Below are positions 20,343-52,440 of a DNA stretch of 64,000 nt, in pieces; position 1 is the stretch's first letter; the number at the start of each line of letters is the position of its first letter. The stretch covers positions 63,984,001 through 64,048,000 of the forward strand of contig NC_043005.1 of the NCBI RefSeq assembly GCF_006345805.1, read 5' to 3'. The position numbers and the translations under genes were made by a program. The notes under the pieces are model-generated. The model searched no databases. It had not been told where the DNA came from and saw only the letters and a program-made list of their open reading frames with translations. Source of the DNA: Octopus sinensis (Eukaryota).

Positions 20343-20604
20343 TATATACAATTTCAAAATTAGGATAAAATCTTTATAAGAATTTATCAAGTAGTTAGCG
20401 TGAAAAACCTCATAAGAGAAAAAAAACCATCAAGTTTTCTCTTAAAAATATTTATTTGTATTATATATAGGGCATTACTATACATTAATGCCACACGCTA
20501 GGAGGGATTCTTAAGGTCAAAACTACCAAAATAAATAAACACATAGTATTGAATGCGAGGGAATGTAACTCTCGAAGCGAGCCTTTTAAAAACAGAATTC
20601 AGCT

Positions 20605-20659
20605 GCAAATCACATGATTTCATAATAATTGCAGAAATGCACTTTTTGATCGTCATTGC
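20605..20659 (-). ncRNA. Hammerhead motif (mirror copy, C3A)
   Basis: Minus strand GCA ATGACGA..TGCA tttc TGCA..GAAA TCATGTGA TT TGC. Confidence 0.6.
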
Positions 20660-20934
20660 AAGCATAATTCAAGATTTATAACGAATGAACAAAAATCAAC
20701 ATACCAGCTGAACACCCAATGTAACCAGCATGTCATATAGAAATGTTCAACCTTTATACATCTATTTAAAAGGCGGGCTTTTTCGAATGTTCAACCTTTA
20801 TACATCTATGTAAAAGGCGGCCTTTTACATAGATGTATAAAGGTTTAACATTCCTATATGCTACGCTGGATACATTGGGTGTTCATCTGGTATGTTGATT
20901 TTTGTTCATTCGTTATAAATCTTGAATTATGCTC

Positions 20935-20989
20935 GCACTGACGATGAAAAAGTGCATTTCTGCACTAATTATGAAATCATGTGATTTGC
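20935..20989 (+). ncRNA. Type-I hammerhead ribozyme motif
   Basis: GCA CTGACGA tgaaaa AGTGCA tttc TGCACT aattat GAAA TCATGTGA T T TGC; near-palindromic stem III. Confidence 0.75.
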
Positions 20990-21469
20990 AGCTGAATTCT
21001 GTTTTTAAAAGGCCCGCTTCAAGAGTTGCATTCTCTCGCATTCGATACTATGTATTTATTTATTATGTTGCACAGGAAACAAGAATATAACTGGTAACTT
21101 CAATGTTGATAGAAAATGATAAAGAGTAAAACAAAAAAAAACATTATTTTTAAATTTGAACTCAATACATAAATATATCTTTCATTCGAATTTAAATTTC
21201 ATTTCTTTAGCCCCCCACCCACCCACTCACCAGGTTTCGATGTGAATTTAATTTGTTTAAATAAACGTCACAGTCTGAAATTGGTAATTAAACTAATTAT
21301 GATTTATAAAAATAGGCCGAGAGCAAAACATCGCAAAAGTTACCGATAATTAACTACAATTAATCGATACAACCTTAAGCAGAATATTTTTTTTAGTAAA
21401 AGCTAAAGAACGAAAAACGAACTGGAATCCAGTTTTGTTTCTATCCATAATGTTTCTATCATCAACCTC

Positions 21470-37345: not shown

Positions 37346-37392
<47 letters not shown>

Positions 37393-38522
37393 AGCAAGGA
37401 AAAATTGTAAAAAGGCAGAATGCTAAATTGAAAGAAAATTTTAATGAAAATGGGTGTATGGAAAAACTTTTAGAAAAATTGATAAAATATACATATATAT
37501 ATTAATTCAAACCGGTTTTCGTCATAATGTGACTTTTCAAGAATTGTAAAGAAAAGAATTTTTTTTTAATGTGAGGAGGGGGGGAAAAAGAAAATTACAT
37601 TGTTTTTTGCAAAAAAATAATAATAAATATATACAAAAATTTAAAAAATAGGTACTCCGATACATTGTAAAGTCTTTGTGTATCTTGAGTTTAATGATTG
37701 TTCACGAAAAAATTACCTTGAAGTATTGAGATCCAATGGGATTAAATCCATCTGTTGTTTAATTTAATTAAGGTTGTCTCTTAAGTGGATGCAAAACAGA
37801 AAGTAGTAGTAGTAGTCCAGTTCCTGTGTTGTGAATAAGGGGAGATAACTATTTTGGTTTTTTTAAGCTCTGCAATTTGTGTTTGTTCAATTTTTTGTAA
37901 TAAAGGATGTTAATAAACCTTAAATTATAAAATTATCATATTAGCTTCATTTGCATTATCTTTTTTATATAATTGTTTGCTAACTTAACATTCAGATTTT
38001 AACACTTTATTTATTTTCTAATTATATAAATTTGCATAAACCAATTTATAATTACATTTCAGATTGTTATGTCATATATAATAAAAATGATAGTAATAAT
38101 AACAACAATAATAATAATGATATTTAAAGAATATAAGTTTTAGCTTGAAGTGATGACTGCATGGTATCCTTATATATTTGTGTTAGTCCATCCAAGAAGT
38201 ATGATCAACGAGGAGTTTGCATATTAAGATGCGTTTTGAATTTTTCAATAAAGAGATTCTCCTTGTTAATTCTCTCCTGTGTGGTTATTCCGTCTTTACA
38301 TTGGTAGAAGGGGAATGTGTAGAATTTGGGATTTTTGTCTTTAGCGCATGAGTCTATGTGGTCACTCTGTGGGATTTGCCGGTATTCCGGGAGATTTACT
38401 TTTTCCATACACCCATTTTCATAAAAGTTTTCTTTCAATTTAGCATTCTGCCTTTTTACAATTTTTCTTTGCTTATCATTTCTCCACGTGCGGTCAACAC
38501 AACCCCACCATTTATTGATCTA
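37393..38522 (-). mobile_element. Truncated Penelope-like element with inverted pseudo-LTR, in (TA)n
   Basis: 37393-~38398 is the reverse complement of ~42547-43540. ~38399-38522 is a forward copy of ~43467-43588 including the 3' tail. Both ends abut TA repeats. Confidence 0.9.
37504..37545 (-). ncRNA. Hammerhead with U3-A8 covariant core
   Basis: Minus strand AATTC TTGAAAA GTCA catta TGAC GAAA ACCGGT T T GAATT. Confidence 0.8.
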
Positions 38523-38869
38523 TATACATATATATATATATATATATATACACATATTATGATGAGGATTATGATGATGGTGATGATGAATGATTGTAGT
38601 CTTCCGAGTAATACGGTTCTGAGATTTCATGATGAATAGTGTGCACAAATATTTTGTTAACAGTGATGAAATGTTTGTGCTGTACATTAGCTGACTTCCT
38701 CCATCAATTTGACGTAGGCTGAACACATGTACGACACACCAGATGCTGCTGTGATCGCTTAGTAGTGGGGGCTAAAGTGTTTTGCTCAAGAACACAGCGC
38801 ACCACCCTAACACAAGGCCATGCAACCTCACACATACGCGCGCACACATACACACTCATATACACATTC

Positions 38870-40321: not shown

Positions 40322-40575
40322 TGGAGGCACGTGGCTTAGTGGTTAGGGTGTCAGCATCATGATCTTAAGATTGTAGTTTCGATTCCTGGACCGGGCGACG
40401 CGTTGTGTTCTTGAACAAACCACTTCATTTCGCGTTGCTCCAGTCCACTCAGCTGGCGAAAATGAGTAACGCTGCGATGGACTGGCGTCCCGTCCTGCTA
40501 GGAAACACATACGCCATTGAAACCGGGAAACCGGGCCCATGAGCCTGGCTAGGCTTTAAAAGGGCGCATTTATTT
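40322..40575 (+). mobile_element. tRNA-derived SINE with V-domain-like segment
   Basis: A-box tggcttagtggt, B-box gtttcgattcc, and ctgcgatggactggcgtcccgtcc (V-SINE-like). Confidence 0.8.
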
Positions 40576-42002: not shown

Positions 42003-42282
42003 AAACATTATTACAACGCCAATATCCCTCCACCCTTATAGAGTATGGAATAAAACGCGCAAAAGAACTGGACAACATTACACTGAAAACCACCCAACCC
42101 AACACCACACACAACCCCAAAATACTTCCATACATTTCCAACCACAACCCCAAAAATACCGAAGCATACACCACAGTTATACAAAACCTCAGTCTACTGT
42201 CAACAGACCCAAAAATGAAAAACATTATAAATACACACAAAATCCTCAAATGTAAAAGGCAACACAAATCTTAAAAAAACTC

Positions 42283-42738
42283 TTGACAAATGCCAAACTT
42301 CACACACTACATCCATCCCCAGCAGTTAAAAAATGTGCACGCCTAAACTGTGGCACCTGCCCCTTCCTACTTGAAGGCTCTGAATTTATCTTCAAAGAAG
42401 GAACGAAGTTTAAAATCAAGACCAACTTCTCCTGTTCCTCTGAGAACCTTATCTACGTTCTCACATGCGCTGGTTGCCAACATAATTATGTTGGACAAAC
42501 GAGCCTCCCGTTACGTAAAAGAGTAGCGGTGCATAAAGAACAAATAAATCTCCCGGAATACCGGCAAATCCCACTGAGTGACCACATAGACTCATGCGCT
42601 AAAGACAAAAATCCCAAATTCTACATATTCCCCTTCTACCAATGTAAAGACGGAATAACCACACAGGAGAGAATTAACAAGGAGAATCTCTTTATTGAAA
42701 AATTCAAAACGCATCTTAATATGCAAACTCCTCGTTGA
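42283..42738 (+). pseudogene. GIY-YIG endonuclease domain of the PLE ORF (C-terminal part)
   Basis: CARLNCGTC Cys motif, NLIYVLTCAGC..YVGQT..R...H..HIDSC..E..FI..F...LN. The C-x4-C-x2-C linker is typical of Neptune-clade PLEs. Confidence 0.9.
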
Positions 42739-43392
42739 TCATACTTCTTGGATGGACTAACACAAATATATAAGGATACCATGCAGTCATCACTTCAAGC
42801 TAAAACTTATATTCTTTAAATATTATTATTATTGTTGTTATTATTACTATCATTTTTATTATATATGACATAACAATCTGAAATGTAATTATAAATTGGT
42901 TTATGCAAATTTATATAATTAGAAAACAATATAAATAAAGTGTTAAAATCTGAATGTTAAGTTAGCAAACAGTTATATGAAAAAGATAATGCAAATGAAG
43001 CTAAAATGATAATTTTATAATTTAAGGTTTATCAACACCCTTTATTACAAAAAACTGATAAACACAAATTGAAGAGCTTAAAACCCATAAAGTTGTCTCC
43101 CCTTATTCACAACACAGGAACTGGACTACTACTACTTCCTGTTTTGCCATGCACTTAACAGACACCCTTAATTAAATTAAACAACACATAGATTTAATCC
43201 CATTGGATCTCAATACTTCAAGGTAATTTTTTCGTGAACAATCATTAAACTCAAGATACACAAATATTTTACAATGTATCGGAGTACCTATTTTTTAATT
43301 TTTGTATATATTTATTTTTATTTTTTGCAAAAAAACAATGTAATTTTCTTTTTTTCCCCCTCCTCACTTTTAAAAAAATTTGTTTTCTTTAC

Positions 43393-43434
43393 AATTCTTG
43401 AAAAGTCACATTATGACGAAAACCGGTTTGAAGT
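43393..43434 (+). ncRNA. Hammerhead with U3-A8 covariant core in the PLE 3' pLTR
   Basis: AATTC TTGAAAA GTCA catta TGAC GAAA ACCGGT T T GAAgT; sense orientation relative to the GIY-YIG ORF. Confidence 0.8.
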
Positions 43435-43590
43435 AACATATATATTTTATCAATTTTTCAAAAACTTTTCCATACACCCATTTTCATTAAAATTTTCTTT
43501 CAATTTAGCATTCTGTTTTTTTACAATTTTTCCTTGCTTATCATTTCTCCACGTGCAGTCAACACAACCCCACCATTTATTGATCTATAT

Positions 43591-51126: not shown

Positions 51127-52440
51127 GTGCTAGCGTTGGTCTATTCACTGTGTTGATTTTTGACGAGTCGGACGGAATATTTTGGGCTGCTTAGCAGCGG
51201 TTTGTCAGTGAATGTTATACCGGTAGAAAAAATGTATTCAGACCTTAGCGAGTATGAGCTGTCCTCAGCAGAGGAGTTCGTTAAGGCGGTAAATAGAATG
51301 GACGAGCATTTGGAAAGATTAAAAAGTTTTGCTGAGGCTGCAGAGGTGAAGAAAAAGGAGGTGGACCTAGCCGGACTGAAGGAGCTGAGTAAGATGACAC
51401 AGAAGGTGGGCGGTGACGTAAAGTTACTACCCACGAAAAGGGTCATGGAAAATATGGAAAAGAAGACCATTACCTGCAAGGTGTACTCAGTGGAGAGTAG
51501 GAAGGTGGAGCGGATGGAGATGGAAAAAGTTGAAAAGGCATTGAAGGGGCTTTCGAAAGAAGTAACATACTTAGCGAAAGGAAATGGATATGGGACGATG
51601 GTTGTCCAGTTTAAGACAGCGAAGGAGGCAAAGAGGCTGGCGAGGGCAAATGTAAAAACGGAGGAAGTGGTACTTCTACCTACGAAGCTTGGAAAAAGAT
51701 TTCTAAGATGAGGCCAGAAGAAATTCCACCCAATATAGAAGTGGTTTGAGTTGCGACAGCCGTCCTCGTTGGAAGTGAGGAGGAGGTGGCTGTCCTCTAA
51801 GCCATGTAAACGGAGGATGGAGAGGAAAAACACTGAACCTCATTATACAGGCAGAGAAGATGTAATTGGAGAGTTTGGTGGAGACGGTGATGTTGGGAGA
51901 GATTGTGTTAAGAGTGTGGGTGGAGTGCAGGATCCCACGATGTTTTAAATGTGGCCAAAAGGGCCACGTTAGAGCGCACTGCCCTCTGCAGAGGAAAACG
52001 ACAGATGGTGGAGACGGAGGAAAAAAAGGAAGAAGTACAGATAGATGGAAGGAACAAGGAGGATGACTGGACAGTGACAGAGAATAAAAGGAAAAAGAGA
52101 AAGAAGAGGAAGAACAGTTAGTGTGATGTGAGACCCCAGACCAACTCCAACTCGCCCCAGACCACTCTGATCACCCTTCCCATACAGACACCAAACCCAC
52201 CCACCCCCTCTCCTCACAGGAAAAAAAGAAAAAGAACAGACACCACAACATTTACCAGACCCCTCCCCCACCGTGAAAAAAGGTTACGTGTACATGGAGG
52301 AGAGAGTGTTGTCACTCAGCGATGGGGGAAAACGGTAAACAAAAGAGATGAATGACTAAAGAGGACTCAGGACTCAGAGGTGGCGAGTCATGTTACTCAG
52401 TGTGGGGTGAGTAACACACGTTTTATATTCTCATTTCTCT
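51127..52440 (+). mobile_element. ORF1-only L1/Tx1-like element (gag-like ORF1 with CCHC zinc knuckle, disrupted)
   Basis: ORF 51160-51711 continues through a stop and frameshifts to CFKCGQKGHVRAHC (C-x2-C-x4-H-x4-C). No ORF2 follows. 3' hairpin tgttactca..tgagtaaca. Confidence 0.7.

What the first reader, a model, noticed from the sequence alone, without database searches (positions are those of the whole stretch)
43393..43434. PLE hammerhead with a compensatory U3-A8 core (UUGAAAA instead of CUGANGA)
Both PLE copies (43393+ and 37504-) read AATTC-TTGAAAA-GTCA catta TGAC-GAAA-ACCGGT-T-T-GAA. Positions 3 and 8 form a tertiary Watson-Crick pair in hammerheads (established). Changing both C3>U and G8>A keeps that pair, which argues for selection rather than decay. 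Stem III is the perfect palindrome AACCGGTT and the cleavage triplet reads UUU or GUU depending on register. Standard CUGANGA searches would miss this motif.
Basis: partly seen in the sequence, partly recalled or inferred. Interest (0 to 1): 0.75.

Follow-up and report, generated by a model that had tools for sequence, protein, structure and literature searches.

The report
Penelope hammerhead, known U3-A8 core
The motif is a hammerhead-shaped RNA in the end repeat of a Penelope-type jumping gene, its U-A core swap is already in print, and genomic copies in which U6 or ribosomal RNA is joined at the predicted cut point suggest that it likely does cut in living cells.

Summary
Observation confirmed at 43393-43434(+) and 37504-37545(-). 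The motif is a type I minimal hammerhead in the pseudo-LTR of a C-terminal-endonuclease Penelope-like element. U3-A8 is family-wide: about 803 of 827 genomic matches, against 2 with C3-G8. Stems I and II covary between subfamilies. The swap is not new: Perreault 2011 reported it in nature, and Cervera and de la Pena 2014 in Schistosoma Penelope elements, with the same UUGAAAA core; UUU sites are in their alignment too. The register here is UUU. The 43393 copy has a stem I mutation, and both window copies are truncated fossils. What I add: three independent insertions join a cellular RNA (U6 twice, 18S rRNA once) to the base just after the predicted scissile bond, as expected if a 5'-OH product was ligated and then retrotransposed. 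Numbers are small and the evidence indirect. This scan noted such U6 junctions before in other genomes. The largest, young subfamily lacks one U (510 matches, against 249 with it), so it is either a GAAAA/GUU core variant or a dead ribozyme that spread anyway; unresolved.

The parts
43393..43434 (+). Type I minimal hammerhead motif, copy 1 (stem I weakened by T>G at 43433)
43398..43404 (+). Core box U3-U4-G5-A6-A7-A8-A9 (U3 = 43398, A8 = 43403)
   Evidence: family tally
43405..43417 (+). Stem II, 4 bp with 5-nt loop; G10.1-C11.1 invariant
43421..43428 (+). Palindromic stem III (A15.1 to U16.1), predicted to form an 8-bp duplex between two molecules
   Evidence: duplex -10.1 kcal/mol; monomer hammerhead fold +2.5 for the intact copy
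43429..43430 (+). Predicted scissile bond, U17/G1.1 (UUU triplet)
   Evidence: structure; fusion junctions in other genomic copies
37504..37545 (-). Type I minimal hammerhead motif, copy 2 (family form, intact 5-bp stem I)
42003..43586 (+). 5'-truncated Penelope-like element copy 1: end of ORF, 3' UTR/pLTR with hammerhead, long tail; flanked by (TA)n
42256..42738 (+). Frameshifted ORF end: CX4CxxC linker and GIY-YIG endonuclease with CCHH residues
   Evidence: Pfam PF01541 E 2.8e-5
37390..38405 (-). 5'-truncated Penelope-like element copy 2, about 94% identical to copy 1, short 3' end
38401..38523 (+). Inverted piece of the element tail joined to the 5' end of copy 2 (typical PLE inverted structure)

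Best explanation
The motif is a minimal type I hammerhead carried in the pseudo-LTR of a Penelope-like retrotransposon family whose core has U3-A8 in place of C3-G8, and in active elements it likely cut the transcript after UUU, probably as a dimer, leaving a 5'-OH end that was likely sometimes ligated to other RNAs before reverse transcription. Shown: the sequence, its place in an RT plus GIY-YIG element, family-wide U3-A8, stem covariation, and genomic fusions at the predicted bond. Inferred: U3-A8 pairs as the 3-8 pair does in solved hammerheads; two copies pair through AACCGGUU (tandem 4.6-kb units put two motifs on one RNA); cleavage is weak, partial and perhaps protein-assisted, as reported for a lizard PLE; an RtcB-type ligase made the chimeras. 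In a tandem the cut lies about 170 nt upstream of the likely start codon of the next unit, so it would trim a read-through transcript to unit length. The two window copies are truncated, on opposite strands and likely inert.
For: Element identity: GIY-YIG in the window, RT PF00078 E 1.9e-7 in related copy L033, inverted and tandem layouts. Core state: 81 UUGAAAA, 10 UUGAUAA, 1 UUGAAGA, 0 with C3 among 92; 827 matches of a pattern with free stem II, control 6, of which 16 C3-A8, 2 C3-G8 and 6 U3-G8. Conservation: upstream UTR identity between subfamilies is 79-95%, and about 47% to the distant F lineage, while core bases stay fixed and the free position 7 takes A, U or C. 5 of the 9 stem I and II pairs show two-sided changes in a hand-picked 14-row alignment. 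Cleavage footprint: full-length U6 (Rfam 96.7 bits) joined to G1.1 in L148; a U6 3' part joined to G1.1 in L151; a 31-nt sense 18S rRNA piece joined to G1.1 with no microhomology in L190. Of 61 tail-anchored copies that keep G1.1, 5 break within 0-3 nt of the bond and 8 over the next 37 nt (Poisson P 0.002). In a separate family, 2 of 7 tail matches are U6 fusions at the equivalent bond. U6 ends in a cyclic phosphate and RtcB joins it to 5'-OH RNA (PMC6789731).
Against: No cleavage or expression was measured. Counting only foreign-RNA partners, the excess in the tail-anchored sample is 3 against 0.87 expected, P 0.057. One of those three (28S rRNA, L107) has an ambiguous junction, and U6's terminal U run overlaps the UUU in L151. 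U6 is fused to many other repeats at varied points in this genome (208 U6-like 3' ends, 100 listed), so 5'-OH ends need no ribozyme. The monomer is unstable and stem I is very weak (-0.7 kcal/mol); folding z-scores are 0.37 and 1.32. The shuffle control ignores relatedness; pairs with two-sided change were matched by 22 of 500 shuffles, and the 3-8 pair itself shows no two-sided change within the family. The largest young subfamily lost one U in the core. In Anolis the hammerhead was not needed for insertion in vitro and no RNA-seq reads ended at the cut site. Published metazoan minimal hammerheads cleave poorly in vitro.
Confidence: 0.72

Rival explanations
1. The fold is conserved for a non-catalytic reason (dimerisation through the palindrome, protein binding), and cleavage is negligible or dispensable. 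The junctions at G1.1 would come from reverse transcriptase stalling or switching template at the structured palindrome.
For: The one-U-short subfamily B2 is the most numerous (most of 510 matches), young (97.5% within-group identity) and nested among U17 forms (100/100 support). Hammerhead mutants did not affect insertion in vitro in Anolis. Cervera and de la Pena leave non-cleavage roles open.
Against: A stall at stem III would be expected after copying N17, yet the 18S junction omits it, and L148 has the tail of a subfamily in which 6 of 7 comparable copies have A17, which the junction lacks. B-type copies share the palindrome but showed no U6 or rRNA fusion. Catalytic-core bases, not only the palindrome, are conserved out to the F lineage.
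Confidence: 0.2
2. U3-A8 is a decayed canonical core that was fixed by drift in a master element and copied neutrally; the motif has no function.
For: AT-rich context; very weak stem I; subfamily B2 tolerates a core deletion.
Against: Compensatory stem changes between subfamilies, variation confined to free positions 7, 17 and loop II, conservation to a lineage with about 60% endonuclease identity, and the same core in Schistosoma PLEs.
Confidence: 0.06
3. The two window copies work together as a dimeric ribozyme, or either has been recruited by the host.
For: Two copies lie within 5.9 kb.
Against: They are on opposite strands, 5'-truncated, separate insertions, and copy 1 has a stem I mismatch.
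Confidence: 0.02

Closest known systems
U3-A8 minimal hammerheads of Schistosoma mansoni Cercyon Penelope-like elements (Cervera and de la Pena 2014, PMC4209133; seen: main text parts 1-3 of 4, supplement file 2 part 2 of 3 and a term search; supplement file 1 not readable)
   Same: Type I minimal hammerhead in a pLTR, U3-A8 core (entry S. mansoni(4) has UUGAAAA), short stem I, palindromic stem III, U-rich upstream and AU-rich downstream flanks; U17 is common in their alignment and the oyster entry has UUU.
   Different: Here no extra base between A9 and G10.1, stem II is 4 bp rather than 6-8, and the palindrome is 8 nt. I saw no activity data for their U3-A8 form, and no fusion evidence.
Natural C3-G8 to U3-A8 covariation in hammerheads (Perreault et al. 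2011, PMC3088659; seen: passages and section 8)
   Same: Same compensatory pair, stated to be active in vitro; an insertion in the GAAA box (U13a) is also listed among natural variants.
   Different: Not the minimal dimer-type PLE context; the combination U3-A8 plus an extra A in GAAA (one reading of subfamilies B2 and F) is not mentioned in the section read.
Anolis Poseidon PLE hammerhead (Frangieh et al. 2024, PMC11167929; seen: parts 1-2 of 4)
   Same: pLTR hammerhead near the ORF start, two 3' ends (tail), AT-rich targets; single 3-8 mutants dead and the double mutant partly rescued.
   Different: Canonical C3-G8, tested with G3-C8; cleavage needed protein and was dispensable in vitro; no reads at the cut site.
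U6/LINE-1 chimeras made by RtcB ligation (Moldovan et al. 2019, PMC6789731; seen: passages)
   Same: Full-length U6 ending in a U run joined to a 5'-truncated retroelement RNA.
   Different: L1 junctions are variable; here they fall on a predicted ribozyme cut, and an rRNA piece serves as partner as well.

Membership tests
Hammerhead ribozyme, type I minimal (PLE type) | Core boxes with a Watson-Crick 3-8 pair, G12-A13-A14, A15.1-U16.1 | tested here: met
   U3-A8 in about 803 of 827
Hammerhead ribozyme, type I minimal (PLE type) | Stems I and II supported by compensatory change; G10.1-C11.1 | tested here: met
   94.5% of cells paired, 5 pairs with two-sided change; slid controls 28-43% paired
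Hammerhead ribozyme, type I minimal (PLE type) | Short palindromic stem III, unstable as monomer, stable as dimer | tested here: met
   (energy calculation only)
Hammerhead ribozyme, type I minimal (PLE type) | NUH cleavage triplet | tested here: met
   UUU in this family, UUA in part of subfamily E; unclear in B2 and F, which are one base short
Hammerhead ribozyme, type I minimal (PLE type) | Self-cleavage 3' of N17 giving cyclic phosphate and 5'-OH | not testable with these tools
   only indirect genomic fusions at the bond
Hammerhead ribozyme, type I minimal (PLE type) | Match to an Rfam hammerhead model | tested here: not met
   0 matches at gathering score in the window
Penelope-like element, C-terminal EN+ | ORF with RT followed by GIY-YIG endonuclease | tested here: met
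   every copy examined is frameshifted or truncated
Penelope-like element, C-terminal EN+ | pLTR with hammerhead, partial tandems, inverted 5' copy, optional tail, microsatellite targets | tested here: met
   features as described in PMC8557442
Neptune/Nematis clades | CX2-5CxxC linker before GIY-YIG, and CCHH motif | tested here: met
   read by eye in the translation of 42256-42738 against the description
Neptune/Nematis clades | RT phylogeny with reference elements | not tested
   no reference PLE sequences were on hand

The most novel reading that the evidence does not exclude
This U3-A8/UUU hammerhead cuts in the germ line, its 5'-OH product is ligated to U6 and rRNA fragments and retrotransposed, and the family's most successful subfamily runs a doubly altered core (U3-A8 plus an extra A in the GAAA box, GUU site) that still cuts. 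With an A3-U8 family in the same genome, such fusions would give a genome-wide in vivo read-out of which hammerhead cores are active.
Probability: 0.3. Interest if true: 0.65.

Novelty: new member of a known kind. Interest (0 to 1): 0.36.

Why it matters
The U3-A8 core by itself matters little: it is published. What matters is whether the weak minimal hammerheads of animal Penelope elements cut in vivo, which the papers read here leave open. Fusions of U6 and 18S rRNA at the predicted bond are a fossil record bearing on that question. The family also offers a natural series for a direct test: U17, A17 and one-U-short cores in closely related subfamilies of differing success.

Tried and rejected
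Rfam on the window: no match. Single-strand folding with shuffles: no excess stability, as expected for a dimer-type motif. GUU register for this family: rejected, it breaks stem I or needs two bulges. A C3-G8 sister to polarise the swap: the only 2 such hits (L063, L064) have poor stem I and no endonuclease or RT homology in the stretches fetched, so the direction is not shown. Sequencing runs: no RNA holder listed, only contigs of runs guessed to be RNA; laying 4 of 24 runs gave no start or end information. Two further hits of the U6-junction pattern (L173, L177) are not U6. My first idea that subfamily B2 is dead because it lacks fusions is not established: U6 alone gives 2 of 249 against 0 of 510, P 0.11, and one B2 copy, L234, has a clean internal junction exactly at G1.1; one such event could be chance. 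The classifier was faulty and was redone. The root of the tree (long branch to F, near-random alignment) was not trusted. Lunse et al. 2017 (small PLE hammerhead variants), Przybilski and Hammann 2007 (3-8 pair exchanges) and Hammann et al. 2012 are not held; I saw only their titles in reference lists. They and unseen supplements may already cover U3-A8 activity, A3-U8 or GAAAA variants. Literature searches for U6 fusions at hammerhead sites: 0 papers; 1 unrelated; for 3-8 pair names; for octopus with PLE hammerheads: (1 paper, on Naiads).

Full report
Observation. The motif is present as written at 43393-43434 on + and 37545 to 37504 on -. Numbered as a hammerhead: stem I 5' strand AAUUC, U3-U4-G5-A6-A7-A8-A9, stem II GUCA/UGAC, G12-A13-A14, stem III A15.1 to U16.1 = AACCGGUU, U17, stem I 3' strand GAAUU. 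A relaxed descriptor finds 2 sites in the window and 0.025 per shuffle. Rfam finds none. The only register that keeps both stems gives a UUU site. Copy 1 has T>G at 43433, leaving 3 contiguous stem I pairs.

Context. Both copies lie about 660 nt downstream of the stop of a GIY-YIG endonuclease frame (PF01541) with a CX4CxxC linker and CCHH residues. Related copies carry an RT (PF00078) and show inverted and 4.6-kb tandem layouts, two alternative 3' ends and (TA)n flanks. This is a C-terminal-endonuclease Penelope-like element, Neptune/Nematis-like by the linker described in PMC8557442 (passages); the clade was not tested by phylogeny. The window copies are separate 5'-truncated insertions on opposite strands. 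The genome G000 has 2.72 Gb; earlier scan notes call it octopus-like, which I did not test.

Is U3-A8 the family state? Yes. With positions 3, 7, 8 and 9 partly free, 92 copies gave 81 UUGAAAA, 10 UUGAUAA, 1 UUGAAGA and none with C3. With stem II free, there were 827 matches against 6 in the control: 16 C3-A8 and 2 C3-G8, 6 U3-G8, hence about 803 U3-A8 by subtraction. These patterns see only pyrimidine 3 and purine 8. The 2 C3-G8 hits are not shown to be relatives, so the ancestral swap is inferred from the hammerhead consensus.

Is it under selection? Subfamilies differ by 5-21% in the upstream UTR, and the F lineage barely aligns with about 60% endonuclease identity, yet all keep the core. 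Differences fall on position 7 (A, U, C), loop II, position 17 (U, A) and on both sides of stem pairs: AAUUC/GAAUU against UAUUC/GAAUA, and GUCA/UGAC against GUCG/CGAC and GCUA/UAGC. In a 14-row alignment that I chose by subfamily, 94.5% of cells pair and 5 pairs change on both sides; slid controls pair 28-43%. The shuffle control ignores relatedness, so this is support, not a probability.

What is known. Perreault et al. 2011 (passages, section 8) report natural U3-A8 and say such cores were already shown active in vitro. Cervera and de la Pena 2014 (parts 1-3 of 4) found U3-A8 in Schistosoma PLE hammerheads, about 1,300 hits; their supplementary alignment has the same UUGAAAA core and a UUU site in an oyster PLE; activity of metazoan minimal forms was low and needed dimers. 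Frangieh et al. 2024 (parts 1-2 of 4) ran a single/double 3-8 mutant test on a lizard PLE hammerhead: rescue was seen, cleavage needed protein, it was not required for insertion in vitro, and no reads ended at the site. A review (PMC6765202, passages), a G17 study (PMC3884650, passages) and a 2026 preprint on retrozymes (part 1 of 5) add background only. The headline of the finding is therefore known.

Does it cut in vivo? Following a lead from an earlier scan note, I anchored on the tail downstream of the motif. One search gave 212 matches and listed 100; the loci and stretches fetched for them yielded 87 distinct copies. Of these, 63 had a G1.1-like anchor, 24 did not, and I dropped 2 anchors as spurious. 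Of 61, 5 break within 0-3 nt of the predicted bond and 8 over the next 37 nt; Poisson P is 0.002, or 0.057 if only the 3 foreign partners count. Partners: full-length U6 in L148 (Rfam 96.7 bits), whose tail type has A17 in 6 of 7 comparable copies, so the junction probably has no overlap; a U6 3' part in L151, inside a PLE-type inverted pair; a 28S rRNA piece in L107 with an ambiguous junction. A second search anchored at G1.1 (113 matches, 100 listed) added L190: 31 nt of sense 18S rRNA ending at G1.1 with no shared bases. Rfam found no such RNA in 12 loci scanned that included several other break points. A genome-wide U6-junction pattern gave 5 hits: 3 from the two known insertions and 2 not U6. 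Independently, a different PLE-linked family has U6 at its equivalent bond in 2 of 7 tail matches. U6 ends in a cyclic phosphate, and RtcB joins it to 5'-OH RNA (PMC6789731, passages); a hammerhead's 3' product has a 5'-OH. Against: U6 is fused to many other repeats at varied points here, and the numbers are small. My searches found no paper on U6 fusions at hammerhead sites, but four earlier notes of this scan report them in other genomes.

An open problem. 510 matches are one base short between GAAA and stem I, against 249 of full length. Most belong to subfamily B2, which is monophyletic, young and sister to a U17 form; the F lineage has the same shortage. Either N17 is deleted (dead), or an extra A sits in the GAAA box and the site is GUU; a GAAA-box insertion is among Perreault's natural variants. 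Among 409 B-type tails two filtered searches showed no U6 or rRNA fusion, though the filters miss some junctions. One B2 copy, L234, joins the ORF end cleanly to G1.1. This neither proves nor excludes activity.

Mechanism, with status. Shown: sequence, element, covariation, fusions. Inferred: in tandem copies two motifs pair through the palindrome (duplex -10.1 kcal/mol; monomer fold +2.5) and cut after U17, about 170 nt before the likely start codon of the next unit. Cleavage must be partial, since most copies run through the intact motif. The 5'-OH product keeps the tail and can be ligated and reverse transcribed.

Verdict. A real, conserved, probably active PLE hammerhead of a published core type: a new member of a known kind.

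Noticed in passing
G000, e.g. C5:16063955-16063993, C2:5678581-5678619; L193, L197: A separate hammerhead family with an A3-U8 core (AUGAUUA), 2-bp stem II with a 4-nt loop and GUU site: 45 pattern matches, control 8; endonuclease homology in L193 and L197; 2 U6 fusions at its predicted cut (L191, L192). A3-U8 was not named in the papers returned.
   Followed up: partly
G000 subfamily B2 (e.g. L045, L066, L170) and lineage F (L055, L060): Core one base short before stem I (GAAAACCGGUU then stem I); about two thirds of all matches.
   Followed up: partly
L234 (G000:C10:98639317): B2 copy in which the ORF end is joined directly to G1.1, the 3' UTR and 5' part of the hammerhead missing, no microhomology.
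   Followed up: partly
L019 near 1246(+); L071 near 436(+) and 416(-): Another U3-A8 hammerhead-like repeat with different stems and a 4-nt AAUU palindrome.
   Followed up: no
G000 genome-wide; C1:141926091-141959502: 208 U6-like 3' ends, many followed by recurring repeat sequences; a tandem run of about 20 U6-like units on C1.
   Followed up: no
L198 (C1:192676067), L199 (C10:7747139), L200 (C4:30294819): U6 fused to other short AT-rich tails ending in (TA)n, two of them at the same starting bases; possibly cut products of further PLE families.
   Followed up: no
L088, L089, L097, L106, L129, L134: Subfamily E combines U3 with A17, which could mispair with U3 as G17 does with C3, yet a U6 fusion (L148) has this tail type.
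   Followed up: no
window 20527-21067: Inverted repeat with 256-nt arms, 91% complementary, 29 nt apart; no hammerhead by my descriptor.
   Followed up: no
window 51157-51711 (+): 184-aa charged, helical-looking open frame, possibly a retroelement ORF1 remnant; not searched.
   Followed up: no
window about 40325-40560 (+): Looks by eye like a tRNA-derived SINE between the two PLE copies.
   Followed up: no
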